DNA from: Candidatus Ozemobacteraceae bacterium
Lineage (GTDB): Bacteria; Muiribacteriota; Ozemobacteria; Ozemobacterales; Ozemobacteraceae
Direction: 5' to 3'
DNA length: 64,000 nt
NCBI GenBank assembly: GCA_965140445.1
Contig: OZ223236.1
Location: 3,650,498-3,714,497 of the forward strand
Shown here: positions 22,328 to 56,000 of the stretch, one piece after another
Layout: every line of letters begins with the position of its first letter
Numbering within the stretch: the first letter of the stretch is position 1
Program-made: the position numbers and the translations under genes
Notes under the pieces: model-generated
Database searches by the model: none
What the model was told of the DNA's origin: nothing
What the model saw: only the letters and a program-made list of their open reading frames with translations

Positions 22328-23191
22328 TTAATCAAAATCCCCATCATCATCTTCATGCGGATAATTCTTTTCCGCACACTCGGGACAAATCCCGTGACTA
22401 AATTTTGCCATAGAATGTTCCGAGATATAGTTTTCAACTCGATCCCAATAGCCTTTGTCATCCCTAATCTTTTTGCAGTGTGAGCAAATAGGAATAATAC
22501 CCTTAAGAGTTTTAATCTCCTCCATAGTATTCCTAAGCTCTTTAATTAAGTTTTCCTTTTCGGCATTAGATTCCTCTAATTCTTTAACAACCTTTTCCAC
22601 GGCTTTTGTTGAATTATTTAAGCCTTCCTGGACCATTCCCCTTGATTTCTCCATTACAAAGGAAAAAAGAAAAATAATCAAATAGGCTGAAACACTTCTA
22701 ACTCTTACATTAAAATCATATTTTGCAACAAAACTAAAATGCTTATCAAAAAAGAAAACTGTAAGCATGACCAGCAATAAACACCAGGCAATTCTGCTCC
22801 CATTTTTTTCTCCCAGAAGGAAAACCGAAATTATTGGAAAAGTGAAGGACCAAACATAACCAGAATTAGAAGATCCCCCAGAAATAAGCAAAAAACAATA
22901 CAATAAAAAGCCTACAGAAACACCCATTATAGAAAATAGCCTATAGTTTTTTGTTTTTCTAAGCAAAATCAAAAATAATAACAAAACGATTGAACAGGAA
23001 AAATCTACAAAAGCCAATTGATAATTTCCCTGATAGCTAGCAATGGGTGCCAGAATCAGAAGAGTAGCCATGGAAAATAAAAGGGTTAAATTCAACATCA
23101 GAGTCCGTCTCAAAGCTTCTATTTCATGCTTCTTTGACAAACCTGAAGAAATAAAATCCCAGAACCATTCTTTTAAAGTTTTCAGAGACAT
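22328..23191 (-). CDS. Membrane sensor (multi-TM N-terminus) - coiled coil - C-terminal Cys4 zinc-ribbon-like module (paralog A)
   Basis: Five or six predicted TM helices. C-terminus LKGIIPICSHCKKIRDDKGYWDRVENYISEHSMAKFSHGICPECAEKNYPHEDDDGDFD. Confidence 0.75.
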   Translation of the reverse strand: MSLKTLKEWFWDFISSGLSKKHEIEALRRTLMLNLTLLFSMATLLILAPIASYQGNYQLAFVDFSCSIVLLLFLILLRKTKNYRLFSIMGVSVGFLLYCFLLISGGSSNSGYVWSFTFPIISVFLLGEKNGSRIAWCLLLVMLTVFFFDKHFSFVAKYDFNVRVRSVSAYLIIFLFSFVMEKSRGMVQEGLNNSTKAVEKVVKELEESNAEKENLIKELRNTMEEIKTLKGIIPICSHCKKIRDDKGYWDRVENYISEHSMAKFSHGICPECAEKNYPHEDDDGDFD

Positions 23192-23224
23192 AGCGTTTTC
23201 TGGTATCTTTTCTCTTGATTAATT

Positions 23225-24079
23225 TTAATCATCATCAAAGTCCTCTTCAGAGTATAGCTCTTTAATGCAGTCTGGACAAATACCATGACTAAATTGTGCC
23301 TCAGTATGGTCGGTAATAAAATTCTCGACTCTATCCCAGAAGCCCTCATCGTTTCTTATTTTTTTACAGCACGAGCACATTGGTAAAATTCCTTGTAAGG
23401 TGCTGACCTCATTCATTAATTCCTTTAACTCATGAATGAGATTTTCCTTAACTGCTTGAGCTTTTTCAAGTTCTGTAACAGACTTTTCCATTTCGACTTT
23501 AGACTTATTCAAGTTCTTTTGAATAGAATCTCTCAATTCTTCCATCACAGCAGCAAAAAGAAAGATTAAAAAATATGCCGACAATGCTCTAATTGCAATG
23601 TTGAAATCATAACTCTCCAAATAAGGAATTTCATTTCCCGCGAAAAAAACAATACCAACAAAACTAAACAAAACAAGACTAAAAAAAGCGCCACGCTGGT
23701 TGCCAAGCAAAAAAATAGAAATCAAAGGGTAAGTAAAAATCCAAACATGTGAAGCTCCACCAACACCACCTGTACCTGATAAATAAGCAAAAAAGACACC
23801 CGTTAGCGCTACTGCAAAGGTCGAACAGAATACATAATTGTGAGTTTTCTTATGATAAAAAAATAGAAAAAGTAAAATACCTAAAGTAATTGAATCAGCA
23901 ACTACAACTCTGTAGCTACCCTGAAAGTATGATAAAAGACCTAAAACAAAAATAAAAAAGCCGCCAAGAAAAACCAGAATATTAAACATAAAGACACGTC
24001 TAAGTTCTTCAATGTTATTTTTATCCTTAAGGCCTCCCGAAAAGAGATACCAAATTATTTTTTTTGATTCATTCTTCAT
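23225..24079 (-). CDS. Membrane sensor - coiled coil - Cys4 module (paralog B, tandem duplicate of A)
   Basis: Same architecture. C-terminus LQGILPMCSCCKKIRNDEGFWDRVENFITDHTEAQFSHGICPDCIKELYSEEDFDDD. Confidence 0.75.
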   Translation of the reverse strand: MKNESKKIIWYLFSGGLKDKNNIEELRRVFMFNILVFLGGFFIFVLGLLSYFQGSYRVVVADSITLGILLFLFFYHKKTHNYVFCSTFAVALTGVFFAYLSGTGGVGGASHVWIFTYPLISIFLLGNQRGAFFSLVLFSFVGIVFFAGNEIPYLESYDFNIAIRALSAYFLIFLFAAVMEELRDSIQKNLNKSKVEMEKSVTELEKAQAVKENLIHELKELMNEVSTLQGILPMCSCCKKIRNDEGFWDRVENFITDHTEAQFSHGICPDCIKELYSEEDFDDD

Positions 24080-28374: not shown

Positions 28375-29376
28375 CTAATCGTTGTCTTCCCAGTCCAGTT
28401 CTGGATAAAGCTCCTTTGCGCAATCGGGGCAAATTCCATGACTTATTTCTGCATCAGTATTATCGTAGATGTAAACTTCTAATTTACTCCAGTATCCTTT
28501 ATCGTTTCTAATTTTGTGACACTTACAACATAGAGGAAGCAGGCCGGAAAGAGTTTTAATTTTGGAATTTGCAAGCTGAAGATTTTTAATTAATTCCTCT
28601 CTTTCAATTGCATATCGTCTTTTTTCGGTTACATCAGCGTGCGTACCACACATCCTTGATGGTTTTCCCTGCTCATCATAGGAAACGACCTTTGCCCTGT
28701 CCAATATCCATTTTATAGATGAATCCTTGCAAATCATTCTATATTCAAGCTCATGGATTGGCTTCTTTCCATCCAGGTGGTCTTTAATGGAATTCCATGC
28801 TTTTGCCCTATCCTCTGGATGCACAAAATCTTCCCACTGTTTTACCGTAAACTGTATTTCTTCAAATGTATATCCTAGGATTTTAGCCCACATCTCATTT
28901 CGTTGGACTTCTCCAGTTTTCAAATTCCAGTCCCAAAAGCCAAGTTCACTAGCATCCAATACTAATCTAGTTCTTTCTTCACTATCCAGAACTTTTCTTT
29001 CGGCAATAATTCGAGGGGTAATATCAACAAAACTAACGCTGAACTGACCTTTTTTAGGAGAAAATGCGTTAACATGGAAGTGTTTATTTAGTTCCTGAGA
29101 AAAATTTTCAAACTGAATAGGTTCCCCTGTTAGGGCAACTTTTCCATATTTTTGGATCCAACTGTGCTCTGTACCAGGCATCAAATCAAGAATAGTACGA
29201 CCGATAATATCTTCCGCCTTCATACCAGTCAACTTTTCAAAAGCAGGATTAACTAGTAAGAACCTATAGTCAACGGGATTTCCTTGGTCATCACAAATAA
29301 TTTCATGATGCGCAAAACCAAACACCGCCTCCGCAAACAACAGGGCGGCTAATCCAGTGTCAACTTTAGAATCCAC
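28375..29376 (-). CDS. Cytoplasmic 2xPAS sensor - coiled coil - Cys4 module (paralog C)
   Basis: Two PAS folds. C-terminus LSGLLPLCCKCHKIRNDKGYWSKLEVYIYDNTDAEISHGICPDCAKELYPELDWEDND. Confidence 0.8.
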   Translation of the reverse strand: MDSKVDTGLAALLFAEAVFGFAHHEIICDDQGNPVDYRFLLVNPAFEKLTGMKAEDIIGRTILDLMPGTEHSWIQKYGKVALTGEPIQFENFSQELNKHFHVNAFSPKKGQFSVSFVDITPRIIAERKVLDSEERTRLVLDASELGFWDWNLKTGEVQRNEMWAKILGYTFEEIQFTVKQWEDFVHPEDRAKAWNSIKDHLDGKKPIHELEYRMICKDSSIKWILDRAKVVSYDEQGKPSRMCGTHADVTEKRRYAIEREELIKNLQLANSKIKTLSGLLPLCCKCHKIRNDKGYWSKLEVYIYDNTDAEISHGICPDCAKELYPELDWEDND

Positions 29377-32656: not shown

Positions 32657-33991
32657 TTACTCAAAATCCTTTTTAATCTTTTCAAAGCATTCTGGGCAAA
32701 TTCCATGAGAAAATTTGGCTTCAGAGTGTTTTGAAATATACTCCTCCATTTGGCTCCAGGCACCAGCATCGTTTCTGATTTTTTTACAATAAGAACAGAT
32801 GGGTAATATTCCCTGGAGCTTTTTTATCTGCTCAAAAGCCTCGCCAAGCTGAATAATTAAACCTTCTCTGCACTTTTCATTTTCTTTAATATCTGTTATG
32901 TCTGTGGCAATTTCTAAACGAACGACTCTGCCGTCTATCCATTTTATTGCCTTATCTCTACAAGCATACCATCGCTCGGTTAAAGGATTTAATAATTCCC
33001 ACTCAATAACACCATTTACTTCCCCATCATTACCTATCAATCTATCATTGGTGCAAAATTCACATGGCTTTCCACTCGTAACTCCTTGAAAATACTCATA
33101 GCATTTTCTTTTGCCTGGTTCACCAAAAGTTTTTTTGCAAAACTCATTAACTGCAATTAGCTCATAAGTTTCCATATCAGAAACATAAACAGGCATATCT
33201 ATTGAATCAATAATAATTTGATAAGCTTTTCTATCAGAATTTAAACTATCCTGAAATTGCTCATTTTGACTAATTTTACTCCCAATCCACCCTATCAACA
33301 GCATTATTAAAACAATCCCTAACACCCATACAGAAACCATTGAATCATAAAGATGGCGGACCATTTCTTTCTCATTGTTTAAAAGCTTATCAAGGGACAA
33401 TTTAATACCAACTCCACCAACCAGACTTCCAATTTTAAAGCTTTTATCTGTATGGCATCTTAAGCAATTAGCATCTGCAATAAGAGGTTTCATTGAGCAA
33501 AAGACCGTGTCGTTTCTATCACCAAAGTTAAAAAGGTATTCCTTTTCAGGATTTTCTTTCAGAATTCTAAGAGCTTCCAATTCCCAACCTATAGCTTTAT
33601 TTATTGGGTTTAAAGGGTTTAATCCAACAATTCTCCCTTTTATGCCATACATTTCGGAGTAATGTTCCATTGTCTGTTTTAAAACCTGAGCGGGACTCAT
33701 AAGAGTTAAATTCACTCCATTTTCATTGAAAATATCCCGATCTGGCAAATGAGATAGATGGGGGTTAGGCTCTCCTATTTCACTGATCTTAACGTAAACT
33801 CCTCCATGCCGGTTAACCCATGATCTGAATGCCCAATCCTTATTAGTAATAGTTTTAGCCATGTTTTTAGCCAATTCCAGCGTATGCTCGTGATAATTTT
33901 CTGCGGTAAAGTGAGCAACTAAAATCACTGAAGATATCCAAAAAACCACCACAAAAAAAGCAGCAAGCAAAAATCTATAATTTTTGGGCAT
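32657..33991 (-). CDS. TM - periplasmic DUF3365/Tll0287-like heme-c (CxxCH) sensor - TM - Cys-rich PAS-like domain - coiled coil - Cys4 module (paralog D)
   Basis: CLRCH heme-c motif at the end of the periplasmic domain. C-terminus LQGILPICSYCKKIRNDAGAWSQMEEYISKHSEAKFSHGICPECFEKIKKDFE. Confidence 0.8.
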   Translation of the reverse strand: MPKNYRFLLAAFFVVVFWISSVILVAHFTAENYHEHTLELAKNMAKTITNKDWAFRSWVNRHGGVYVKISEIGEPNPHLSHLPDRDIFNENGVNLTLMSPAQVLKQTMEHYSEMYGIKGRIVGLNPLNPINKAIGWELEALRILKENPEKEYLFNFGDRNDTVFCSMKPLIADANCLRCHTDKSFKIGSLVGGVGIKLSLDKLLNNEKEMVRHLYDSMVSVWVLGIVLIMLLIGWIGSKISQNEQFQDSLNSDRKAYQIIIDSIDMPVYVSDMETYELIAVNEFCKKTFGEPGKRKCYEYFQGVTSGKPCEFCTNDRLIGNDGEVNGVIEWELLNPLTERWYACRDKAIKWIDGRVVRLEIATDITDIKENEKCREGLIIQLGEAFEQIKKLQGILPICSYCKKIRNDAGAWSQMEEYISKHSEAKFSHGICPECFEKIKKDFE

Positions 33992-35603: not shown

Positions 35604-37298
35604 TTATCTCAGAACCTTTTTTAATGTCTGGTCTATAGATTTTGAATATTCTATAGCGCCCAGTTTAGTCCTGATACCAGCTTGCCGTAGTTTTAGTTTT
35701 ACAGAAGGTCTCGTATTATAAAAAATCAAACGAATTTTTCTGCCGGCAAGTTCTTCCACAATCGTTTCTAAAGCTACAATTGCAGTCATATCTATCATTG
35801 AGACGCTATTCATATCAAGAACAATAGCCTTCACTTTCCTGGAGTTATTTACAATGCTTTGTAAAGCTCTTTGAGCTGATCCAAAGAATAATGGGCCATT
35901 TATTTCATAAGAAATAATATCATCAGGGAAATCCAATACTTCTCGATTTTCTTTTTTTCCAAGTCGTACGATGTCGGCACCGGAGAGGGCAATAATCCTG
36001 CGAATAAATAAAAACGCTGCGAGCCCCATTCCAACGGCAACAGCAATAACCATATCAAAAACCACAGTTAATAAAAAGCAGGTTAACAACGTAATAATAT
36101 CTTCTCTTGGAGCAATCCGCGCTATACGAATAAAGTGCTTTGTTTCACTCATATTCCATGCAACCTGAATCAACAAAGCAGACATTGCCGCCATAGGAAT
36201 GTACGCAAGAAAGGGGGCAAAAAATAGTATTGCACCAACAATGAATAAAGAATGAAATACCGAAGAAAGCGGTGAAATGCCACCAGCTCTTATATTCGCT
36301 GCTGTTCTGGCAATCGCTGCAGTGGCAGGTATTCCTCCAAAAAAGGGAACAATAATGTTTCCAATTCCCTGTCCAATAAGCTCATCATTTGGGTTGTGAT
36401 TTTTCCCTGATACCCCATCAGCAACAACAGCACAAAGCAAAGATTCAATTGCACCAAGAGCAGCAATTGTTAATGCTGGTCCCATCAGGTCACTTATCAA
36501 AGCAAAACTTAATCCGATTGGATTCCCATCAGCCCCCGGTTGAGTCCATGGCAAAACAAAAGAAGGCAAAAAAGGAGGAATTCCAGCTCCAGAGAACTCT
36601 CCCAAAGAATATTGAAAACGAGTTCCAATTGTTTCTATCGAAAAGTTACCAGTAAATTTTCCAAGAGCGTATGCAATTAATGATGAAAAAGTTAGTGCAA
36701 TAAGTTGCCCTGGAATCCGACTCTTAACTTTTCGCCAATAAACCAGGATTACCAATGTGACTATGCCAATAAAGGTTGCTGACCAATTCAGATTAGGTAA
36801 ATCTTTAAAAATTTCAAACAGCTTACCAATAAAATGGTGAGATTTATGCTGTGTCGTTAAACCCAGAAAATCCTTTAATTGCAAACCGCCGATAACAGTA
36901 GCAATACCAGCTGTAAAGCCAATAGTAACAGGATAAGGAACTAATCTGATCCAATTTCCCATTTTCGTTAATCCCATAAAAATGAGAAAAATACCAGCAA
37001 GCAAAGTGCTTAGAAATAATCCTCCAATACCATATTTACTCACAATAGGAATTAGCACCACAACGAATGCTGCCGTTGGTCCTGAGATATTGACTTCTGA
37101 TCCCCCCGAAAGCGCAATTACAATCCCAGCAATTATTGCAGTGTACAAACCATGCTGTGGCGGGACATCACATGCAATCGCTAAAGCCATGGATAAAGGC
37201 AGCGCTATAATCCCTATGGTCAAGCCAGCGAGAAAATCAGACCATAGTTTTTGGGAATCTTTTATTGAAGAAATAACACTTGGAAAAGCAGAAAACAT
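35604..37298 (-). CDS. SulP family anion transporter with C-terminal STAS domain
   Basis: About 11 TM helices with SulP conserved segments. C-terminal STAS domain. 564 aa. Confidence 0.85.
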   Translation of the reverse strand: MFSAFPSVISSIKDSQKLWSDFLAGLTIGIIALPLSMALAIACDVPPQHGLYTAIIAGIVIALSGGSEVNISGPTAAFVVVLIPIVSKYGIGGLFLSTLLAGIFLIFMGLTKMGNWIRLVPYPVTIGFTAGIATVIGGLQLKDFLGLTTQHKSHHFIGKLFEIFKDLPNLNWSATFIGIVTLVILVYWRKVKSRIPGQLIALTFSSLIAYALGKFTGNFSIETIGTRFQYSLGEFSGAGIPPFLPSFVLPWTQPGADGNPIGLSFALISDLMGPALTIAALGAIESLLCAVVADGVSGKNHNPNDELIGQGIGNIIVPFFGGIPATAAIARTAANIRAGGISPLSSVFHSLFIVGAILFFAPFLAYIPMAAMSALLIQVAWNMSETKHFIRIARIAPREDIITLLTCFLLTVVFDMVIAVAVGMGLAAFLFIRRIIALSGADIVRLGKKENREVLDFPDDIISYEINGPLFFGSAQRALQSIVNNSRKVKAIVLDMNSVSMIDMTAIVALETIVEELAGRKIRLIFYNTRPSVKLKLRQAGIRTKLGAIEYSKSIDQTLKKVLR

Positions 37299-37454
37299 AG
37301 CAAATCTCTAATCATCAAAATTTTAAAGAATGTTTAAAACAAATAAGAGATTTGCGCAACATGGCTTAAAAACACCAATTTATGTTTTTAGGTGATTTTG
37401 AGCATTAAAATGGAAAAAAACGAAAGTTCCGCATAGAAGCAAAAAACTCAATTT

Positions 37455-38870
37455 CTATTCTGGCTTAATTTTATCTTTTCTTAAAAGCTCATCAGCATGT
37501 TCAGGGTAAAATTTTTCTACACATTCAGGACAGATACTATGGGAGAAATTCAAATCAGTATTTTTCCCAAAAAAGCTTTCTATTTTTTCCCAATAACCGG
37601 TATCGGTTCTAACATTTTTGCAATGAGAACAGATTGGAAGCATTTCTTTTAGGGTTTCAACTTTTTCCGCCAACTTTGCATTGGCTTCCTGCAAATCTGC
37701 TTTATAGCTTTCGATTTTATCCATATAGCCATTAAAAGACCTTGCAAGCTCTCCAACCTCATCTTCTGAGCTGACAGATAAACGTAATGAAAAATCGTCT
37801 TTTTCACATTGAGCTATCTTTTGAATTTTTTCTGTTAAAGGCTTGGTAATAGAATAACTAACAGCAGTGGAAACAGGAATCAGAATTATCATTGTTAAAA
37901 CAATTAGTCCCAGGAAAACTAATTCAAACAACACTAATGGATGATACAATTCATCAAGATAGCATGATGAGGCAATTATCCACCCTAATTCAGGTATATC
38001 TTCGAATATAACCAACTTCTCTCTTACAGCCGGTTCACCAGGATTTTGCCATGGGTAGATTATTTTTCCAGATTTTCTTTCAGTCATTTCCCTGATAAAA
38101 TATCTTCCGGAAGAATCTTTAGAACCTGAAATGTTTTGACCTTCTAGAATAGGATGAACCAGGCAGTTTCCTGAATAATCAATCAAATAAGAGTAACCAG
38201 TATTTCTAAATTTTAGACCTAGAATTCCCTCCCGAAAATCCTCAACATCAATAATCTCTTTAAAATCTTCAACATAAAAAGAAGCTGAAATAATCCAATC
38301 CCAAGGCTCAAAATAAAGCATATAGAGGGCTTTTTTCCTTTTTTCAACCTCTCCTGGATTTTTCCACTCGTACATTAAAAACCCATTCTTCTCAAGAGTT
38401 TGTCTTTTAACAAAAGCAAAATTAGAAACATCTTGATCTACAAGCTCTTCATGTGGATGCATGCGTAAAAAGCCTTTACTATCAAGGCAATAAACATATC
38501 CATTTTTACCTATCACCTGAGTCTTGAGAATTTTATCTGCAGCTTTTCTCGCTTCTTCTTCTGTAATTTTTCCTTCTAATACCTGCTTATGCAAATCTGA
38601 AACGACTTGTAAACTAGAATTGGCAATAGATTTCAAATGATTTCTGATTGAAGACAAAATTGAGGTTTTTACTAATCTCTGCATGAGCTTTGTAGAAATT
38701 GAAAGCTCAGTCTCTACATTTTGTTCAATCTGATTTTTTAAAAGAAAATAGGTAACTGAGCTGAAAATTATTAGTATAGCTGAAAATGCAATAAAATTAG
38801 CAATTACAAGCTTTGTACGGATTTTTTGCTTATTAAAAAAACCTGACAATTCATAATCCCCTTCATACAA
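37455..38870 (-). CDS. TM - dCache_1 - TM - HAMP - coiled coil - Cys4 module (paralog E). MCP-like architecture with the MCP domain replaced.
   Basis: Cache region GYVYCLDSKG...HP. HAMP at ITKPLTEKIQKIAQ...VGELARSFNGYM. C-terminus LKEMLPICSHCKNVRTDTGYWEKIESFFGKNTDLNFSHSICPECVEKFYPEH. Confidence 0.8.
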   Translation of the reverse strand: MYEGDYELSGFFNKQKIRTKLVIANFIAFSAILIIFSSVTYFLLKNQIEQNVETELSISTKLMQRLVKTSILSSIRNHLKSIANSSLQVVSDLHKQVLEGKITEEEARKAADKILKTQVIGKNGYVYCLDSKGFLRMHPHEELVDQDVSNFAFVKRQTLEKNGFLMYEWKNPGEVEKRKKALYMLYFEPWDWIISASFYVEDFKEIIDVEDFREGILGLKFRNTGYSYLIDYSGNCLVHPILEGQNISGSKDSSGRYFIREMTERKSGKIIYPWQNPGEPAVREKLVIFEDIPELGWIIASSCYLDELYHPLVLFELVFLGLIVLTMIILIPVSTAVSYSITKPLTEKIQKIAQCEKDDFSLRLSVSSEDEVGELARSFNGYMDKIESYKADLQEANAKLAEKVETLKEMLPICSHCKNVRTDTGYWEKIESFFGKNTDLNFSHSICPECVEKFYPEHADELLRKDKIKPE

Positions 38871-38978
38871 ACATTATCTAATATATAAGATACCATTTCA
38901 ATGAATCAAACCCAATAAAAAAAGAGATCTGATTTTCAAATCAATTTAATGAAAACCAAATCTCTTTTCAATTATTTT

Positions 38979-40592
38979 TTAAATTCCAGAAATAGAATAT
39001 ACAAGGCCGCTACCACCAATAAAAGCAAGCGCTCCAATCGCCTTTTCTGGCATTCGCCCTTCAAGTTCCATGGCTTTACCAAAAAGTCCAAACACTAGCG
39101 GATGAACAAGAAATGGCATAGCAAAAATGAAAGGAATCATACTTGATGCTTGATTACCAAACATACCGCCTTGAACTGCGGCGAAGAGTCCAAAATGAGA
39201 GATAGCTGCAGATTTGGCCATAGAGGCATATCCAAGATCCATTCCACCAATGTGCAATAAAAAGAATCCACCAAAAATTGCCGTAAGTTGCCATCCAAAA
39301 GAGAATTGCATGAGCCCTTTAACTTCTTTGCCTTCATCACCATTTGCGGATCTAAGAGTTTTAATAGACCAAAAAACCAGACACAAACCTATTAATGAAA
39401 TGGTTATAGCTGCCGGAACGAGGAGAGCCCCTTGCTTAACACTCATAGCAAGTATGGTAAAAACAAATACATGGCCGAAAAAGGGAATATTAATCATAAT
39501 TGGAGCTCTGGCGGCAGCTTCAGATCCAAGATCCCCAGCAGTACATGCCCCCGTTAAACCAGCATGAGATAAAGCTCCAGCCATACCAGGAGCAAGGTTT
39601 CTGATTTGATTGCTATTCGCAGCAAAAATTAAAACTGCCAATCCACCAAACATCCAAAAAATCTGGCCGAAAAAGCCATATGCCATCACAGAAGTCATTC
39701 CTTCAAGTTTAAATGCCTCGACAATTCTTGACCCGCCAATCATAAAGTTTGCTGCCAATACCACGGGAATTCCAGCAAACAAAAGAGCTCTGCCTGTTGG
39801 TCCAAGTTGCCAGTTTGAAAAAAACATTCCAATAGTGGAGGAAATAATCATTGCAAAAAAGATCTGTGGCAATGAAATATAAGACTTTGCAAAAACAGCT
39901 ATTTTAAAACTCAGTGTCAAAACGGCTACAATAAAGATGATCTCCAGCAAGCCTTTTCTGATATAGGCAGATTTATTTTTTATTGTTGCCCGATGATCAA
40001 TAAAAATTATTGATCCAACAATTCCAATATAAGCTATTAGAGGATAAAGTTTGGCAAGAGTATCCTCAGGACTAGCCCCAACTATCATCTTTATGATTCC
40101 TTCAATTCCTAGAAGAATGAACATAGATCTAACCAGAAAAACAAGTTGAGTTCTTTTGGTACCAAGAATTACCTCTTCTTGTGATGGAATAACAATATCT
40201 TCTATTTCTTCAAGATGCTGTCCTGCAATAATTTTTCGTAATTCCTGGCCCCCGACAAAAAATGAAGCTATCAAGGCAATGATGGTTACTTTACTAATTA
40301 AGCCAATTAAAGGAAACTCCTTAAGACCGGGGGTACCAACACCACTTGAAACAAGAGCATACCCCATTCCAAGACCGAAAATAACTATAATCAGTATTGG
40401 AGAGTATCTTGTTCCTGCAACAACAGTTCTAGAAATTAAAACCATTGGTAAGATTAAAAAAAGAGTCAACCAAAACTGGTTTAAGAACTGCAACTTTGCA
40501 ATTTGTTCAATCAAATGTTCCATAATAATTTCCTCAACTAATTTTTTACTTTTGCTCTGCAACATTTTAATTAAAACAAAAAGCTTTTGCAA
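38979..40592 (-). CDS. Polytopic membrane protein, putative permease of unknown family
   Basis: About 12-14 hydrophobic helices with Gly-rich segments. No specific family recognised. Confidence 0.5.
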   Translation of the reverse strand: MQKLFVLIKMLQSKSKKLVEEIIMEHLIEQIAKLQFLNQFWLTLFLILPMVLISRTVVAGTRYSPILIIVIFGLGMGYALVSSGVGTPGLKEFPLIGLISKVTIIALIASFFVGGQELRKIIAGQHLEEIEDIVIPSQEEVILGTKRTQLVFLVRSMFILLGIEGIIKMIVGASPEDTLAKLYPLIAYIGIVGSIIFIDHRATIKNKSAYIRKGLLEIIFIVAVLTLSFKIAVFAKSYISLPQIFFAMIISSTIGMFFSNWQLGPTGRALLFAGIPVVLAANFMIGGSRIVEAFKLEGMTSVMAYGFFGQIFWMFGGLAVLIFAANSNQIRNLAPGMAGALSHAGLTGACTAGDLGSEAAARAPIMINIPFFGHVFVFTILAMSVKQGALLVPAAITISLIGLCLVFWSIKTLRSANGDEGKEVKGLMQFSFGWQLTAIFGGFFLLHIGGMDLGYASMAKSAAISHFGLFAAVQGGMFGNQASSMIPFIFAMPFLVHPLVFGLFGKAMELEGRMPEKAIGALAFIGGSGLVYSISGI

Positions 40593-40879
40593 GCTAATTC
40601 CGAATTAAAAGCAAAATTTGGCCATTTCCTCTGATTTTCTAATTATCCCGTACAAAACAACTAAAAATATAATAAGACATAAAACATCTTTACTTCTTCA
40701 GTTAATTTCTAGTCTAGAGGCTATAAAAGACTTATTTTAGATTTTTTAGTAAACTACGTTTTAGTAAATCAATTGTGGTTATGAGCAAGATATTTTTTTG
40801 CAGTTGCAAATTTTTCTGAGATTTTTTAAGGATTGTGATAATATCAATTTCTCAAAACACATACTGGAGGATGTTATTT

Positions 40880-41785
40880 ATGATTAGAAAGGTTGACCTT
40901 GGCGTATCGACTGGTCACGGTGTTTTCGGAAACCCTGCTCCTCTTGGTCTTTTTGGCCTTGCAATAGCATGTGCTTCTTTGACCCCAATAGCGTTTGGCT
41001 ATGGAGTTTCTTCTACAGGCATAAATTCTGCTGCATTTGTAACTGCAGCAATTTTTTCCCTCCTTTTTGGGGGGTTCTGCCAACTTTTAACCGGACTTAT
41101 GGATTTTGCAAACAAAAACACTTACGGTGGAACAATTTTTACGGCTTTTGCTTTTAACTGGATTATTACTGCCATTTCCTTTGCAGGAATAGGTCTTGGC
41201 TACATGATCGATCACACCATCCTCCTCGCCACCGAAATAGTAATGTTCGTAGTTTTCATTTTTCTAACCTATGGATTTGGTTTTTTCAGCAAACTTTTGT
41301 TCTTTTTCCTTCTAGATATCGATTTATTATATGTTTGCAAAATTATTCGTGCCTTCACCCACACTAAAGCACTTGAAATTCCAATAGCCCTGTTCACAGT
41401 TTTACTTGGGATTATAGGCCTTTGGCTTGCTTTAGCAGGTCTTATGAATCCAATTACCGGCAAACAAATGTTTCCTGTCGGAGGCCCAATGTTTACTGGC
41501 CCCAAAAAACAAGGTTTCAATTGGAAAGTTAGAAGAGCTATTTTTGATGTGTTATATGAATCCTGGAAAGAAAGAGGGTTTGCAATGATATCTATGGAAA
41601 CCCTTTCTGAAGAAGTAAAGTCCAGAACCAATGAAGACAAAATTCTTCCTGAAATTTGTTACCTGGGGGAATATGGAGCTTTAAAAACGAAGGAAAATGA
41701 TCTTGAAAAACCAACAGCCGTAAGATTAACTTCCGAAGGTATAGATCTATATGAACAGCTAATTTTCAGGAAGTATGATTTCTAA
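40880..41785 (+). CDS. Acetate/succinate uptake transporter family (GPR1/FUN34/YaaH-SatP) protein with a ~100-aa cytoplasmic C-terminal extension
   Basis: Family signature NPAPLGLFGLA. GGAGG RBS 9 nt upstream of the ATG at 40880. The ORF track start at 40835 lacks an RBS. Confidence 0.7.
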   Translation: MIRKVDLGVSTGHGVFGNPAPLGLFGLAIACASLTPIAFGYGVSSTGINSAAFVTAAIFSLLFGGFCQLLTGLMDFANKNTYGGTIFTAFAFNWIITAISFAGIGLGYMIDHTILLATEIVMFVVFIFLTYGFGFFSKLLFFFLLDIDLLYVCKIIRAFTHTKALEIPIALFTVLLGIIGLWLALAGLMNPITGKQMFPVGGPMFTGPKKQGFNWKVRRAIFDVLYESWKERGFAMISMETLSEEVKSRTNEDKILPEICYLGEYGALKTKENDLEKPTAVRLTSEGIDLYEQLIFRKYDF

Positions 41786-44071: not shown

Positions 44072-44704
44072 CTATCCTTCTATTTCTAAATCACCGAACT
44101 CATTTTTCAAGCAATCAGAGCAGATTCCATGCGAAAAAACAGTTTCAGAATTCATTGTAATGTATTCTTCTAATGTAAACCAAGTGCCATCTACATTTTG
44201 AATTTTCCGACAATATGAACAAATAGACAACAATTCAGATAAATATTTAATTTTTTTCTTAGCTTCTTTCAGGTTTTTATTTGTTCTAATTAATTCTTTA
44301 GTCGTTTTTGCCAATTCATTATTTAAAACTGAAATCTGTCGGATAATACTATCAGTACGTTCCGTTTCAGGTATTCCAATCAGCAACCAATCTTTTTCCA
44401 TTTTAAAAATTTCACAATATAAAGGTATGGATAATGGATTTACAAAGTCTAAACTGATTTTCTTTTCTTCAGGAAACTGACTTATAAGTTCCTTTAGTTT
44501 ATTAACAGTTGCTGAAGTCAAAATAGTTGAGATACTATCACCTGGCTTAATATTACTTCCAGAAGTCTTTTTAAGATTTAAACTACTGGAATTAAGAATA
44601 TAATCTTCACTAAAAGAAAAAAAAGCAATTTTACTTGTGGAACTAACGTATTCAAGCACATAAGAAAAAATGGCTCCCTCATTTAATGTCACAATAAAAA
44701 CCAC
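44072..44704 (-). CDS. Small cytoplasmic protein: unknown N-terminal domain - coiled coil - Cys4 module (paralog F)
   Basis: C-terminus LSELLSICSYCRKIQNVDGTWFTLEEYITMNSETVFSHGICSDCLKNEFGDLEIEG. Overlaps the upstream B12-binding protein gene by 16 nt. Confidence 0.75.
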   Translation of the reverse strand: MVFIVTLNEGAIFSYVLEYVSSTSKIAFFSFSEDYILNSSSLNLKKTSGSNIKPGDSISTILTSATVNKLKELISQFPEEKKISLDFVNPLSIPLYCEIFKMEKDWLLIGIPETERTDSIIRQISVLNNELAKTTKELIRTNKNLKEAKKKIKYLSELLSICSYCRKIQNVDGTWFTLEEYITMNSETVFSHGICSDCLKNEFGDLEIEG

Positions 44705-45804
44705 TCTCTTGCTAGTTTTTTTGCTTCTATGACATCATTTGCAAAACCATTTGCCCCAATTCTCTCCCATAGCTTGGGATTCTCATTAAAGCTTCGTCCC
44801 CCAACCATTATTTTAGTGTCTTTTAAAGCCTCTTGATTCTTTATTTGAAAAATCATCTGCTGCACCACTGTTAGATTAAAAGGCATCGTCACAGAAACAG
44901 CCAGAATGTTTGGTTTAAATTCGTAAGATAAGTTTAAAACGTCTTGAACAGGAGTATTTGCACCAAGGTATCTAACTGTCCATCCATCGTATTCCAAAAT
45001 ATCAGCAATCATCCACGCCCCTAACTCATGAAATTCGTTAGAACATGCGGTTACAATTGCCCTCTTATTGTTTGGACATGATTTAAAATCAAGTTGAGCT
45101 AACCAGGCCATAACTCTATTAACAATTGCTGAAGTAAGATGCTCCTGAGCGACCGAGATTTCGCCTCGCTCCCAGAGACAGCCTATCTCGTACATTGCCT
45201 GTTGCAAAACATGGATATAAAATTCTTCCAAGTCAGCAATTGAATGAACACTTCCTTTTGCCAGGTTTAGACTTCCTAAGTGGTCTGCCTTTAGCAAAAA
45301 CCGCATAAGTTCATTTTTGCAACTGCTCCATCTTCCATTTGTGCATGAGCTTTGGATTAAAGGACTTCTTGCTAGATCCACAAAGTCTTCATGATGAGCA
45401 ATCATCCAATTGTAAACATCGAGAATCTCATCTTTAAGTTCTATAGGAAACAATTGCTCTACAGCCACTTTCCAAGCTTTTAACTCAATAGGAAAATACT
45501 CAAAGGAAAACCCATGGTTGGAGTATGTTTTATAAACCCATAATACAGTGCGACTCAACAATTCAAAATTATTAAGCGAAAAAACCGATGTCATAAAAGC
45601 AGCATGGTTTTTGTGGTTATCCAGCATTTTTTGCAAATGATTAGAGCCGATGAGAGAAATCACATTTTTGTTTTGCGACAAATTGCAATCTACTGATTCA
45701 ATTAGCTTTGGACAAAGTATCTCATACTCTTCGGCAGCCTTTTGGGAAACTTTTCTTATTGAGCGAGTGGTTTCTATCAAGCTTTCAATAGACAACATGG
45801 CCAT
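44689..45804 (-). CDS. Cobalamin-binding protein (helical N-terminus + B12-binding_2 four-helix bundle + B12-binding Rossmann domain). No DNA-binding or catalytic domain.
   Basis: DxHxxG-type motif SNEFHELG followed by the Rossmann-like pattern LGANTPVQDV...ILAVSV. Confidence 0.7.
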   Translation of the reverse strand: MAMLSIESLIETTRSIRKVSQKAAEEYEILCPKLIESVDCNLSQNKNVISLIGSNHLQKMLDNHKNHAAFMTSVFSLNNFELLSRTVLWVYKTYSNHGFSFEYFPIELKAWKVAVEQLFPIELKDEILDVYNWMIAHHEDFVDLARSPLIQSSCTNGRWSSCKNELMRFLLKADHLGSLNLAKGSVHSIADLEEFYIHVLQQAMYEIGCLWERGEISVAQEHLTSAIVNRVMAWLAQLDFKSCPNNKRAIVTACSNEFHELGAWMIADILEYDGWTVRYLGANTPVQDVLNLSYEFKPNILAVSVTMPFNLTVVQQMIFQIKNQEALKDTKIMVGGRSFNENPKLWERIGANGFANDVIEAKKLAREWFLL

Positions 45805-53087: not shown

Positions 53088-56000
53088 ATGGAAAATCAAA
53101 AAAAAAGAATACGGCAAAATCATTTTTTGATTCTATTATTCTCTACAATTATTTTTGCTATTTCTGCCTTGGTAAACATACATTTCGCAAAAATAGACGT
53201 TGAAAAAATAGCAATTGAGAGAGGAAGGCAGATTGTAATTGACCAAGCCCACCAGCTTGAAAGGGAGTTTTCGTCCCTCCAAAAATCCTTGCATCTGATT
53301 GCCGCTAATTTTTCCCGATATAGCAACTGGCCGAAGGCAAAACGTCGCGAGACTATTCTAGGATTATTAGAGGTAACTCTTGAAAAGCACGAAATGGCCA
53401 ATGGAATCTTCACCCAATGGGAACCGGGTTTCCCGGACAATCAAACGGCATCAAATGCATTTTTCAGCGATGAATCTGGCGGATTTATTCCATACTGCAT
53501 ACGACTTCCTGATGGAACTGCCTCTTTCACATATCTAACCGATCTGGATAGCCCAAAAGTTTTGGAAGCTTATAATTTTGCTCGACAAACTGGGCAGGAT
53601 TTTCTCATGCCCCCGTATTTTTACCTTATCGGAAAAGAACAGGTTGAGATGACAACAATCGTCACCCCTATACCGGGAGAAATTTTCAGACCTGGCGTTG
53701 TTGGAGCCGATATCTCTCTAAAATCAATCCTGAAAAAAGTTAGCAAACTAAGACTTTTCAAAACTGGTTATGGATATTTGTTATCAAATCAAGCAAAGTT
53801 AATTTCGCATCCAAACCATAGTTTAGTTGGAAAAACTTTGACCGAGGTAAACTCCAGCCTGACAAAAGAGCAGGATGCTGTTATTAAGGGGCAATCTTAT
53901 TATGGTGAGGGAACCTCTATAACAGATAAAGGCAAAAAAGTTTTAAGATTCTTTCAGCCGCTTAAACTTTCTGATACAGAAAACTTCCTTGTCTTAGGTG
54001 CTACCATTCCGATGTCAGAAATTTTAGAGGATATAAAGCCGGTCAAACTTTTCTCCTGGCTAACATTTTTCATTGCTCTGGTTATGGTCGCCGCGGCCTT
54101 TTATTTTGGGGTTTCTTCGACAAATAGCATAAAATCAGCTATTGCGGAAAGAATTGAGCTTGAACTTAGATTCAAAGCTATTTTTAACAGTTCTTTTCAA
54201 TTTATGGGAATTTTGAATCCAGATGGAATACTACTTGAAGCTAATGAAACATCGCTAAATGCAATTGGCGAAAAAAAATCAAACGTAATCGGAAAGCCTT
54301 TTTGGGAAACTCCCTGGTGGCCAAGGGACTCTAAAGCTAAAGAAATTCTAATAGATAGTATTCAAAGGGCTGCAAAAGGGGAAACAATCCGATTTGAAGC
54401 TGCTCACCAAACCAAAACATCAAAACAGCTACTGATGGATTTTTCTTTAAAACCAATATTCGATGAAAATGGAAAGGTTTCTTTAATTATTCCTGAAGGA
54501 CGTGATATAAGCGATTATAAGTCTGCCACAGCAGCTCTGGAAGAAAGCGAGAAAAAATATAGAAGTCTTTTTGAATCTTCCAAGGATGCCATTATGACCA
54601 TACATCCACCAAATTGGAACATTGAGACCGGAAATAAAGCTTTATTGGAAATGTTTGAAATTCCAAACAAAGAACTACTTAAACAACATTCGCCAGCCTC
54701 CCTATCGCCAGAAACTCAACCAGACGGAGCGCTTTCAGCAAATAAATGCCTAAAATACTTAAAGATTGCAAGCGAAACTGGAAGCTGTTTTTTTGAGTGG
54801 GAACACAAAAAATTGAATGGAGCTTGTTTTTCCTGCACAGTTCTTTTAACCAGGGTTGGAACAATAAAAAACCATTTCATTCAAGCCACGCTTCGTGACA
54901 TAAGTGAACAGCTTAAGTCTCAAAAGGAAAGAGAAGAACTTTTAGCGCAACTCAATAGAAAAGAAACCATGGAATCTCTTGGGCAGCTAGCTGGCGGGGT
55001 TGCTCATGACTTGAACAATATGCTTGGTGGAGTAATGGGAGCTACAGAGCTTCTTCAGCTTCACTTAAGTGATAACCCAAAAGCCCAGGAATACATTGAT
55101 ATGATTCTCAAATCCACAGAGCGTGGAGCAGAGCTGATTAAAAATCTACTCGCTTTTGCGAGAAAAGGTAAGTTGATATATTCTCCAGTAAATGTTCACC
55201 TTGCGATACAAGAAGCGGTAAGACTCTTGAACAGAACAATTGATAAGAGAATTAAAATTGAAATCGCTTTGGATTCAGCAAAAAGTATTGTTATTGGTGA
55301 TTTATCACAACTACAAAGCGCTATTTTAAACCTCGGCGTAAATTCAAGTCATGCAATGCCAGACGGGGGAGTTCTTGGATTCTCCACCAGAGAAGTTTTC
55401 CTCGACTCAATTTATTGCGAAGCCAACCCTTTTAAAATTGATCCAGGAAACTATATTGAGATAGAAATACGGGATACAGGCTCTGGGATTCCTCAAGAAA
55501 ATTTAAACAAAATTTTCGAGCCATTTTTCACTACTAAAGAGACAGAAAAAGGCACAGGCTTAGGGTTAGCTGCTGTTCATGGAATGATTGAACAACATAA
55601 GGGAGCCCTTAATGTTTACAGTGAAATAGGCAAAGGAACTGTTTTTCACCTAATGCTTCCTTTAACTGAAGACATGGAACTTTTTTCAAAACCAGAAGAT
55701 GAAGTTGTTATGGGTAAAGGATTGATACTTCTAATTGATGATGAAGAGATGATTAGAGCCACAGCTGCGATTATTTTAAAACGCCTTGGATATGACGTAA
55801 TGCTTGCGAGAGATGGAAAGAAGGGCCTGGAACTTTTTAAATTTAACAAAGAAAAAATAGATCTTGTAATTCTAGACATGGTAATGCCTGAAATGAATGG
55901 TATTACCTGCTTTGAGAAAATAAAGGAAATAGAACCAAAAGCCAAGGTAATAATGTCCTCTGGCTTTTCATCAGACGAAAATGTTGAAGCTTTGCTTGCA

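What the first reader, a model, noticed from the sequence alone, without database searches (positions are those of the whole stretch)
37455..38870. MCP-like architecture (dCache-TM-HAMP) in which the methyl-accepting signalling domain is replaced by the Cys4 module
Paralog E has the exact input half of a chemoreceptor or sensor kinase: TM1, a double-Cache ligand-binding domain with the GYVYCLDSKG...HP motif, TM2 and a HAMP domain. After an approximately 40-residue coiled coil it terminates in the Cys4 module. Compare the genuine dCache MCP at 495-2909 in this window. This swap of domains is the strongest argument that the Cys4 module is a bona fide signalling output. It also suggests extracellular small-molecule ligands (amino acids or amines, typical for dCache_1) feed into this pathway. 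A permease-like membrane protein is encoded immediately upstream (38979-40592).
Basis: seen in the sequence. Interest (0 to 1): 0.6.

Follow-up and report, generated by a model that had tools for sequence, protein, structure and literature searches.

The report
Cache-HAMP receptor with uncharacterised Cys4 output
This gene encodes a membrane receptor whose outer half looks like a sensor for small organic acids and whose inner half ends in a tiny, very widespread four-cysteine metal-binding domain of unknown function, instead of any known signalling enzyme, so it points to a signalling output that I could not find described.

Summary
ORF 37455-38870(-), probably starting at the TTG at 38849 (464 aa), encodes TM1, a periplasmic double Cache domain, TM2, HAMP, a short coiled coil and a C-terminal C-x2-C-x29-C-x2-C module.

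- The sensor is dCache_2, not dCache_1.
- Both Cache modules keep the carboxylate-binding Tyr/His/Tyr/Lys tetrad of sCache_2 sensors. A carboxylate is therefore likelier than an amino acid or amine.
- The coil is about 25 residues, not 40.
- The upstream membrane gene is separated from this gene by a strong terminator hairpin and is not conserved next to orthologues.

The Cys4 module matches no Pfam, NCBIfam or PDB entry. It is nevertheless very common: 24,603 clusters at 50% identity, in many phyla.
- It sits at the extreme C-terminus in almost every case.
- It follows REC, PAS, GAF, HAMP, MASE and 7TM sensor domains, with no recurrent known output domain in the same protein.
- Linker lengths are heptad-periodic: REC 25/32/39, PAS 21/28/35, HAMP 44/58/72.
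- Relatives with the same dCache_2-HAMP sensor end instead in histidine kinase, GGDEF or SpoIIE domains.

Best reading: this is a real metal-binding output module, rigidly coupled to the sensor. It probably signals by binding a shared partner rather than DNA. The target is unknown.

The parts
37455..38870 (-). ORF of the receptor ('paralog E'). The likely true start is the TTG at 38847-38849, giving 464 aa. The stop codon is 37455-37457.
38739..38810 (-). TM1 (residues about 21-44 in 471-aa numbering)
   Evidence: hydropathy
37944..38732 (-). Periplasmic dCache_2 domain (residues 47-309), made of two sCache_2-like modules. Each module carries a Tyr/His/Tyr/Lys tetrad: Y125/H138/Y167/K180 and Y226/H239/Y272/K285.
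   Evidence: Pfam; PDB alignment to 5G4Y; residue mapping; PMC5062169
37857..37940 (-). TM2 (residues about 311-338)
37710..37838 (-). HAMP domain (residues 345-387)
   Evidence: Pfam
37641..37709 (-). Short coiled-coil or signalling helix (residues 388-410). The heptad pattern runs directly into LPIC, and the helix is two heptads shorter than in orthologues.
37503..37640 (-). Cys4 module (residues 411-456), LPICSHCKNVRTDTGYWEKIESFFGKNTDLNFSHSICPECVEKFYPE. Cys are at 414, 417, 447 and 450.
37458..37502 (-). C-terminal tail (residues 457-471), predicted with low confidence
38915..38969 (-). 20-bp hairpin followed by a U-run, lying between the upstream membrane-protein gene and this gene. It looks like an intrinsic terminator.
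   Evidence: dG -22.8 kcal/mol, z -5.6, 0 of 200 shuffles fold as well
38873..38901 (-). Promoter-like TTGAAA-17-GATAAT (10 of 12 matches) just upstream of the start. This is weak evidence, because such sites occur at the chance rate in this AT-rich region.
22328..23191 (-). Paralog with MASE6 + coil + Cys4
23225..24079 (-). Paralog with MASE6 + coil + Cys4
28375..29376 (-). Paralog with PAS-PAS + coil + Cys4
32657..33991 (-). Paralog with Tll0287-like domain, TM, an unassigned cytoplasmic region, coil and Cys4
44072..44704 (-). Paralog with an unassigned N-terminal domain + coil + Cys4. Its start overlaps the end of a B12-binding-domain gene.

Best explanation
The gene encodes a dimeric transmembrane receptor.

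Input (inferred): the periplasmic dCache_2 domain, a duplicated sCache_2, binds a small ligand that carries a carboxylate group.

Coupling (shown by anatomy): the signal passes through TM2 and HAMP into a short parallel coiled coil. That coil runs in fixed heptad phase into a C-terminal module of about 45 residues with strict C-x2-C-x29-C-x2-C spacing. The four Cys most likely hold one Zn (or Fe) ion in a treble-clef or zinc-ribbon-like knot.

Output (inferred): the Cys4 module is the output element. Ligand-driven rotation or register change of the coiled coil re-orients the two modules of the dimer. This switches their binding to a cytoplasmic partner that is shared by all Cys4 proteins of the cell. 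The logic resembles many chemoreceptors converging on CheA/CheW, but without a kinase, cyclase or methyl-accepting domain.

The identity of the partner is unknown.
For: Architecture.

Orthologues: the same architecture is conserved at 44-45% identity in Desulfobacteraceae MAGs.

Domain swap: the same sensor plus HAMP is fused in relatives to HisKA/HisKA_3-HATPase, GGDEF or SpoIIE.

The module family:
- It is huge and conserved: 24,603 representatives at E<=1e-3 and 19,721 at E<=1e-10.
- The four Cys, P, R, W, S, H and I are invariant across 77 genomes.
- Cys spacing is identical in 156 of 157 modules, and the module sits 8-28 residues from the C-terminus in most.

Partner domains are all inputs or receivers. 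In 77 proteins from 77 genomes: REC 25, PAS 24, Tll0287-like 6, GAF 4, HisKA_7TM 4, HAMP 3, dCache_1 3, plus MASE3, 7TMR-DISM and Reg_prop. No known output domain appears among the 25 most frequent of the 47 families matched.

Linker lengths are heptad-periodic:
- REC end to first Cys: 25, 32 or 39.
- PAS DIT motif to first Cys: 35 in 68 of 76, otherwise 28 or 21.
- HAMP AS2 to first Cys: 44 in this protein, 58 in six orthologues, 72 in one other.

Structure: the AF2 model (pLDDT 83) shows a long helix, a CxxC knuckle, a beta-hairpin, and the second CPxC at the N-terminus of a helix.

Partner binding rather than DNA binding:
- 57% of the 77 proteins have predicted TM segments.
- Module net charge is -0.7 +/- 1.9, and the tails are acidic.
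- Surface polar residues are conserved across paralogs and phyla.

Carboxylate ligand: the distal module aligns to PscD-SD 5G4Y (E 1.6e-10). Y90/H103/Y143/K156 of PscD correspond to Y125/H138/Y167/K180 here and are repeated in the proximal module (PMC5062169).

Precedent: a Cache-HAMP receptor with no enzymatic output that signals through a bound partner (bioRxiv 10.64898/2026.05.25.727664).
Against: - No partner was identified. No gene family recurs next to Cys4 genes in 80 loci or next to orthologues.
- Metal binding and dimerisation are inferred, not shown. Model coordinates could not be inspected and no multimer prediction was possible.
- The trimmed model is only moderately confident (pLDDT 73). 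Fold searches gave nothing significant, so the fold assignment rests on secondary-structure order alone.
- The heptad statistics use sequences selected by similarity to the module, and many are related or are fragments. They count sequences, not independent events.
- The Tyr/His/Tyr/Lys tetrad is a family-wide feature of sCache_2, so it predicts a ligand class, not a ligand.
- This protein's module is a divergent member: 29-43% identity to the window paralogs, with Asn replacing the roughly 90% conserved His at alignment position 51.
Confidence: 0.5

Rival explanations
1. The Cys4 module is a nucleic-acid-binding zinc finger. These proteins would then be one-component (or REC-activated) transcription or RNA regulators, and this one would be membrane-tethered like ToxR or CadC.
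For: - Cys4 treble-clef and zinc-ribbon domains often bind nucleic acids (established knowledge).
- The hairpin carries conserved K-K-x-R, and a K-K pair follows the second knuckle in the consensus.
- REC-X and PAS-X proteins without another output are often DNA binders.
- The absence of a conserved partner gene nearby is what a transcription factor would show.
Against: - Module net charge is about -0.7 and the tail is acidic.
- 57% of the proteins are predicted to be membrane proteins. DNA-binding one-component regulators are overwhelmingly cytoplasmic (my knowledge of Ulrich, Koonin and Zhulin 2005).
- The surface is almost invariant between paralogs and phyla. This fits one common target better than many different operators.
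- In this protein the basic residues are partly lost (CKNVRTD, VEKF).
Confidence: 0.2
2. The module is not the output. It would be an extra input or structural cap: a redox- or metal-sensitive Zn/Fe(Cys)4 switch, or a dimer clamp. The real output would be made elsewhere, for example by HAMP, REC or PAS surfaces contacting a kinase, as in the Cache_heme-HAMP receptor.
For: - Zn(Cys)4 sites are known redox switches (Hsp33, RsrA; established knowledge).
- The spacing C-x2-C-x29-C-x2-C and the CPxC knuckle equal those of rubredoxin (and the rubredoxin sequence from my knowledge).
- There is an invariant His three residues before the third Cys.
- The family is enriched in anaerobic, redox-stratified lineages.
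- There is a precedent for HAMP itself being the docking site.
Against: - The module is always at the very C-terminus, after an in-phase coiled coil. That is the position and coupling typical of outputs.
- It fills exactly the slot taken by kinase, GGDEF or SpoIIE domains in relatives.
- There is no detectable homology to rubredoxin (hhalign probability 0.7%) or to ZAS or CZB models.
- REC-Cys4 proteins would lack any output other than REC.
Confidence: 0.17
3. The protein is a decayed or truncated histidine kinase or chemoreceptor, and the cysteine pattern has no function.
For: Its nearest sensor relatives are mostly full-length kinases about 270 residues longer.
Against: - The ORF is intact and ends in a module conserved in 24,603 clusters with invariant residues.
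- Six orthologues share the architecture.
- There are no HisKA, HATPase or MCPsignal remnants.
- The gene is followed by 156 bp of non-coding sequence and then an intact SulP gene.
Confidence: 0.02

Closest known systems
dCache_2 / sCache_2 transmembrane sensors (PscD, McpP, CtpM chemoreceptors; MctS-type kinases)
   Same: - TM-Cache-TM-HAMP input half.
- dCache_2 Pfam match.
- The distal module aligns to PscD-SD 5G4Y with the carboxylate tetrad kept.
- Best NCBIfam partial hits are CtpM and MctS.
   Different: - There is no MCPsignal, HisKA/HATPase, GGDEF or SpoIIE output. The cytoplasmic part ends in the Cys4 module.
- dCache_2 itself has no listed structure or ligand (PMC4822843, Table 1).
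Sensor histidine kinases, GGDEF cyclases and SpoIIE phosphatases with the same dCache_2-HAMP sensor (P0008-P0120)
   Same: 40-48% identity over sensor plus HAMP. The signalling helix leaves HAMP in the same way.
   Different: They continue with PAS and a catalytic output. This protein stops after about 25 residues of coil plus the Cys4 module.
Cache_heme-HAMP (CHH) receptor of Pseudomonas azotoformans (bioRxiv 10.64898/2026.05.25.727664)
   Same: A periplasmic Cache, TM and HAMP receptor with no intrinsic enzymatic output, which signals through a bound cytoplasmic protein.
   Different: - CHH ends at HAMP and is encoded next to its Ser/Thr kinase partner.
- This protein has an extra conserved Cys4 domain and no conserved neighbour.
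Treble-clef / zinc-ribbon Cys4 fingers (ClpX N-domain, DksA/TraR, the structural site of Fur, rubredoxin)
   Same: - Two CxxC knuckles, with a beta-hairpin after the first and the second at a helix N-terminus.
- The Cys spacing is identical to that of rubredoxin.
   Different: - No significant sequence or fold match to any of them.
- The module has its own invariant residues (G, W, S-H, I).
- It is obligatorily placed after a signalling coiled coil.
CZB (chemoreceptor zinc-binding) domain at the C-terminus of TlpD-type MCPs and in DgcZ
   Same: A small metal-binding domain attached to bacterial signalling proteins.
   Different: - CZB is a helical 3His/1Cys sensor domain that accompanies a catalytic or MCP output (my knowledge).
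- There is no Pfam CZB match here.
- The Cys4 module occurs without any other output.

Membership tests
Methyl-accepting chemotaxis protein | Cytoplasmic MCPsignal (PF00015) hairpin domain | tested here: not met
   There is no MCPsignal hit at E<=1. The window's real MCP scores 179 bits for this domain.
Sensor histidine kinase | HisKA/HisKA_3 dimerisation-phosphoacceptor domain plus HATPase_c | tested here: not met
   There are no such hits in the whole protein or in its C-terminal 82 residues at E<=10. The NCBIfam kinase hits cover only the sensor and HAMP parts.
dCache_1 (amino-acid/amine-type double Cache) | Score above the Pfam gathering threshold for PF02743 | tested here: not met
   31.4 bits against a cut-off of 45.
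dCache_2 | Score above the Pfam gathering threshold for PF08269 over the whole periplasmic region between two TM helices | tested here: met
   170.1 bits against 26.5, residues 47-309, profile positions 19-298 of 298. TM segments at 21-44 and 311-338.
sCache_2-type carboxylate sensors | Tyr/His/Tyr/Lys residues that hydrogen-bond the ligand carboxylate (PscD Y90, H103, Y143, K156) | tested here: met
   Alignment to 5G4Y. Y125/H138/Y167/K180 in the distal module and Y226/H239/Y272/K285 in the proximal module. Residue roles come from PMC5062169.
sCache_2-type carboxylate sensors | Measured binding of a carboxylate | not testable with these tools
   Needs a thermal shift assay or ITC on the periplasmic domain.
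HAMP | Pfam PF00672 above threshold, placed directly after TM2 | tested here: met
   28.6 bits against 25, residues 345-387. TM2 ends at about residue 338.
Cys4 zinc finger (treble clef / zinc ribbon) | Four invariant Cys in two CxxC knuckles at fixed spacing | tested here: met
   C-x2-C-x29-C-x2-C in 156 of 157 modules. The Cys are invariant in alignments of 120, 77 and 126 sequences.
Cys4 zinc finger (treble clef / zinc ribbon) | Significant structural similarity to a solved zinc finger | tested here: not met
Cys4 zinc finger (treble clef / zinc ribbon) | Bound metal ion | not testable with these tools
   Needs ICP-MS, a PAR assay or UV-vis spectroscopy.
Rubredoxin | Sequence or profile homology to rubredoxin | tested here: not met
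   hhalign probability 0.7%. No PF00301 hit. Only the Cys spacing coincides.
Signalling output domain (generic criteria) | C-terminal to varied sensor or receiver domains, sole non-input domain, and in-phase helical linker | tested here: met

The most novel reading that the evidence does not exclude
The Cys4 module could define a previously unrecognised and very widespread class of bacterial signal output. Sensors and response regulators of many kinds would converge, through a metal-held mini-domain on an in-phase coiled coil, on one still unidentified cellular hub (protein or machine). This would be a pathway parallel to phosphorelay, c-di-GMP and chemotaxis signalling in Thermodesulfobacteriota, spirochaetes, Cloacimonadota, Verrucomicrobiota and other phyla.
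Probability: 0.3. Interest if true: 0.85.

Novelty: new variant of a known kind. Interest (0 to 1): 0.62.

Why it matters
Modular receptors are well understood only when their output domain is a known enzyme or DNA binder. This output-position domain is found in tens of thousands of protein clusters across many phyla. Response regulators are its commonest carriers. It is absent from Pfam, NCBIfam and the PDB, and it did not appear in any of ten full-text literature searches.

If it is a true output, a sizeable share of signalling proteins in sulfate reducers, spirochaetes and many uncultured phyla feed a pathway whose target is unknown. This dCache_2-HAMP member is a useful entry point for three reasons:
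- Its input class is predictable (a carboxylate).
- Its relatives supply natural chimeras with kinase, cyclase and phosphatase outputs.
- Its linker is the shortest in its group.

Tried and rejected
Searches for a known identity of the C-terminal module:
- Pfam and NCBIfam on the whole protein and on four isolated modules at E<=10 gave only noise: Pcf11_C, zf-C4pol, DUF3039, ClpX zinc finger.
- PDB sequence and profile searches gave only coiled-coil-driven Rad50 hook hits and a fortuitous glutamate dehydrogenase hairpin.
- Foldseek against the PDB with the full and the trimmed AF2 models found nothing at E<1.
- Rubredoxin homology was rejected.
- A cryptic HisKA was rejected. There is no conserved His in the helix and no profile hit.

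Literature: ten full-text searches, including literal motif strings, found no description of the module. The S-helix paper does not mention it. The Galperin 2006 response-regulator classification was not held.

Search for a conserved neighbour or partner:
- Clustering ORFs from 80 loci found only other signalling proteins.
- A Pfam scan of 57 putative operon neighbours found HK in 7, REC in 8, and DUF362/Fer4 in 3-4 related Cloacimonadota-type loci.
- The contexts of orthologues are unrelated to each other.
- Of three 'stand-alone' small Cys4 proteins examined, one overlaps a REC gene and one directly follows a PAS fragment, so these two look like split genes. The third is a free-standing 92-aa gene between a VWA_CoxE gene and an AFOR gene.

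Organism identification failed:
- The window's proteins are singletons on one 5.2 Mb contig without names.
- Exact look-ups found no record.
- The window has no rRNA, tRNA or Rfam hit.
- There are no lineage-specific NCBIfam hits.
- The window's own genome was not among the 80 loci returned by the genome scan.
Full report
**Observation.** The ORF at 37455..38870 on the minus strand is real. The identical protein, starting seven codons later, is in public collections on a single 5.2 Mb contig (P0001, 464 aa). The later start is a TTG at 38849 preceded by AAGGGG and is the more likely one.
- Pfam assigns dCache_2 to residues 47-309 (E 7.9e-50) and HAMP to 345-387. dCache_1 stays below its gathering score, at 31.4 against 45 bits.
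- Hydropathy gives two membrane segments, about 21-44 and 311-338. The Cache domain is therefore periplasmic and HAMP is cytoplasmic.
- From HAMP, a helix of about 25 residues leads into LPICSHCKNVRTDTGYWEKIESFFGKNTDLNFSHSICPEC, with Cys at 414, 417, 447 and 450.
- No Pfam, NCBIfam or PDB family matches the last 80 residues, even at permissive thresholds.

**The sensor half.** dCache_2 is a small family thought to have arisen by duplication of sCache_2. In 2016 it had no solved structure listed and was known with kinase, MCP, cyclase and phosphatase outputs (PMC4822843).
- The closest solved relatives of the membrane-distal module are sCache_2 chemoreceptor domains: PscD-SD 5G4Y/5G4Z at E 1.6e-10, then 4K08, 2QHK and 4EXO.
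- PscD binds C2/C3 carboxylates through Tyr90, His103, Tyr143 and Lys156, sandwiched by Trp92 and Trp145 (PMC5062169).
- In the HMMER alignment these residues correspond to Y125, H138, Y167 and K180 (with Y127 and W169). The same set recurs in the proximal module: Y226, H239, Y272 and K285.
- The partial NCBIfam hits point the same way: the receptor CtpM and the kinase MctS.
- A ligand with a carboxylate group is therefore the best guess.
- The window's MCP (495-2909) is a Cache_3-Cache_2 protein. It shares only 27-33% identity with this receptor, over one Cache_2 module.

**Relatives.**
- The six closest full-length relatives (P0002-P0007, 44-45% identity, 468-530 aa; the one with a source name is from a Desulfobacteraceae MAG) have the same architecture, including the Cys4 end.
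- The next hundred relatives share 40-48% identity over the sensor and HAMP. They continue with PAS and HisKA or HisKA_3 plus HATPase, with GGDEF, or with SpoIIE.
- The Cys4 module thus occupies the slot that catalytic outputs occupy on the same sensor. The swap is relative to kinases, cyclases and phosphatases more than to MCPs.

**The Cys4 module as a family.**
- The window holds six copies between 22.3 and 44.3 kb. They sit behind MASE6 (twice), PAS-PAS, a Tll0287-like domain, dCache_2-HAMP, and an unassigned domain. They are only 29-43% identical to this protein's module, so they are old paralogs.
- A profile of the six, searched against 1.84 billion cluster representatives, finds 24,603 proteins at E<=1e-3 and 19,721 at E<=1e-10.
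- None of the 120 best hits in the 5.8-billion-protein collection carries a precomputed Pfam domain on the module. Most are named 'hypothetical protein'.
- A genome scan finds the module mostly in Thermodesulfobacteriota. It also occurs in Cloacimonadota, Verrucomicrobiota, Ignavibacteriota, Neomarinimicrobiota, Nitrospirota, Acidobacteriota, Gemmatimonadota, Hydrogenedentota, KSB1, Latescibacterota, Spirochaetaceae and Deferribacteres.
- The Cys spacing is C-x2-C-x29-C-x2-C in 156 of 157 modules. The module usually lies 8-28 residues from the C-terminus. A few proteins are tandem [membrane sensor-Cys4] x2 units.
- Invariant or nearly invariant residues include the four Cys, P, I, K, R, D, G, Y, W, E, S-H, I and P.

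**Evidence that it is an output.**
1. In 77 proteins from 77 genomes the accompanying domains are REC (25), PAS (24), Tll0287-like (6), GAF (4), HisKA_7TM (4), SBP_bac_3, HAMP and dCache_1 (3 each), and MASE3, Reg_prop/Y_Y_Y, 7TMR-DISM and VUPS (2 each). All are inputs or receivers, and no known output domain is among the 25 most frequent of the 47 families matched.
2. REC-Cys4 is the commonest form, which places the module downstream of histidine kinases. Kinase genes are among the operon neighbours, in 7 of 57.
3. Linker lengths are heptad-periodic:
   - REC end to first Cys: 25, 32 or 39.
   - PAS DIT motif to first Cys: 35 in 68 of 76 cases, otherwise 28 or 21.
   - HAMP AS2 to first Cys: 44 in this protein, 58 in its six orthologues, 72 in another protein, and one outlier at 47.
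4. The hydrophobic a/d pattern runs unbroken to LPIC.

This in-phase coupling is the kind expected for PAS-kinase and PAS-cyclase linkers (my knowledge). One caveat applies: these counts are of related sequences, not independent events.

**Structure.**
- AlphaFold2 with a 120-sequence alignment gives pLDDT 83. It shows a long helix, the first CxxC knuckle, a beta-hairpin (IRDDxGYW), a short helix, and the second CPxC at the N-terminus of a helix. That order of elements is treble-clef-like.
- A trimmed model is less confident (pLDDT 73).
- Foldseek against the PDB gives nothing significant for either model. The weak top hits are other zinc domains: PHD, RING and the Fur C-terminal domain.
- The Cys spacing equals that of rubredoxin, but profile comparison shows no homology.
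- Metal binding is therefore inferred, not shown.

**How the output might work.**
- No gene family recurs next to Cys4 genes. The orthologues of this receptor sit in unrelated contexts. Any target is therefore encoded elsewhere, as expected for a shared hub or for DNA.
- Against DNA binding:
  - 57% of the proteins are predicted to be membrane proteins.
  - The module is slightly acidic (-0.7 +/- 1.9) and is followed by an acidic tail.
  - Its polar surface is nearly invariant between paralogs and phyla.
- I therefore favour conformation-dependent binding of a common partner by the paired modules of the dimer, at a confidence of about 0.5.
- The rivals are nucleic-acid binding (0.2) and a redox/metal input or clamp role (0.17).
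- A Cache-HAMP receptor that signals through a bound kinase rather than its own enzyme gives a precedent for partner-based output (bioRxiv 10.64898/2026.05.25.727664).

**Local context.**
- The upstream ORF (38979-40592) belongs to a highly conserved family of about 513-aa membrane proteins with no Pfam model. Relatives at 62-74% identity occur in Bacillota, Riflebacteria and Spirochaetes. 'Permease-like' is plausible but untested.
- A 20-bp hairpin plus U-run (dG -22.8 kcal/mol, z -5.6) lies between that gene and the receptor. A promoter-like site follows it, but such sites occur at the chance rate here. The receptor gene is probably transcribed on its own.
- Downstream, after 156 bp containing only a weak hairpin and a U-run, lies a SulP-STAS transporter gene.
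- An AceTr (acetate transporter)-like gene is divergently placed at 40835-41785.
- Three transport-type genes around a predicted carboxylate sensor is suggestive. The arrangement is not conserved in orthologues.

**Novelty and verdict.** The receptor is a new variant of a known kind: a standard Cache-HAMP input joined to an output-position domain for which I found no family, structure or literature description. My literature view is limited to the held open-access library. Interest is 0.62. The finding is not a surprise in architecture, but it exposes a very large uncharacterised signalling domain and offers a tractable member in which to study it.

Noticed in passing
window 38979-40592 (-): A polytopic membrane protein (ORF 537 aa; homologues are about 513 aa) with no Pfam or NCBIfam match. 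It is nevertheless 62-74% identical to 'hypothetical proteins' in Clostridia/Bacillota, Riflebacteria, Desulfonatronospira and Spirochaetes. This is unusually high conservation across phyla for an unnamed family.
   Followed up: partly
window 44072-45804 (-): The smallest Cys4 paralog (210 aa, N-terminal domain unassigned) starts at 44704. This overlaps by 16 nt the end of a 371-aa protein with B12-binding and B12-binding_2 domains (44689-45804), which suggests translational coupling. Upstream lie a PLP enzyme gene and a 2,4-diaminopentanoate dehydrogenase gene, which are ornithine-fermentation-type genes.
   Followed up: no
window 40835-41785 (+): A GPR1/FUN34/YaaH (AceTr acetate-transporter-like) protein with a C-terminal cytoplasmic extension of about 100 residues. 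It is divergently placed, two genes away from the predicted carboxylate receptor.
   Followed up: partly
window 22328-24079 (-): Two adjacent MASE6-coil-Cys4 genes in tandem, next to a hybrid kinase/REC gene at 20744-22270. In other genomes, similar membrane-sensor-Cys4 units are fused head to tail in one polypeptide (P0124, P0125, P0130).
   Followed up: partly
L004, L006, L009, L028 (downstream of the Cys4 gene, gaps of 9-145 bp): In three Cloacimonadota loci (L004, L006, L028) and one from an unclassified MAG (L009), the Cys4 protein is followed on the same strand by another gene (357-449 aa). In the Pfam scan of all 57 operon neighbours, DUF362 matched 3 and 4Fe-4S ferredoxin domains matched 4, and I take these four downstream genes to be those hits, although the scan does not list per-member assignments. 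It is the only recurrent non-signalling neighbour seen, and it is restricted to one lineage.
   Followed up: no
L083 5001-9002 and window 35604-37455: A free-standing 92-aa coil-Cys4 protein in a metagenomic contig lies two genes upstream of a SulP-STAS transporter gene. In the window, the receptor gene is directly upstream of a SulP-STAS gene. With only two cases this is probably coincidence.
   Followed up: no
window 37299-37454 (-): The 156-bp spacer after the receptor's stop codon contains a weak hairpin followed by U7. The simple terminator scan did not call it. Whether the receptor gene and the SulP gene are co-transcribed remains open.
   Followed up: partly
whole window: The region is very rich in signalling genes. 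It holds an MCP (495-2909), a hybrid kinase (20744-22270), a dCache-PAS-HK-REC-REC protein (53088-56561) and six Cys4 proteins. There is no tRNA, rRNA or Rfam element in 64 kb. GC content is 34-41%.
   Followed up: partly
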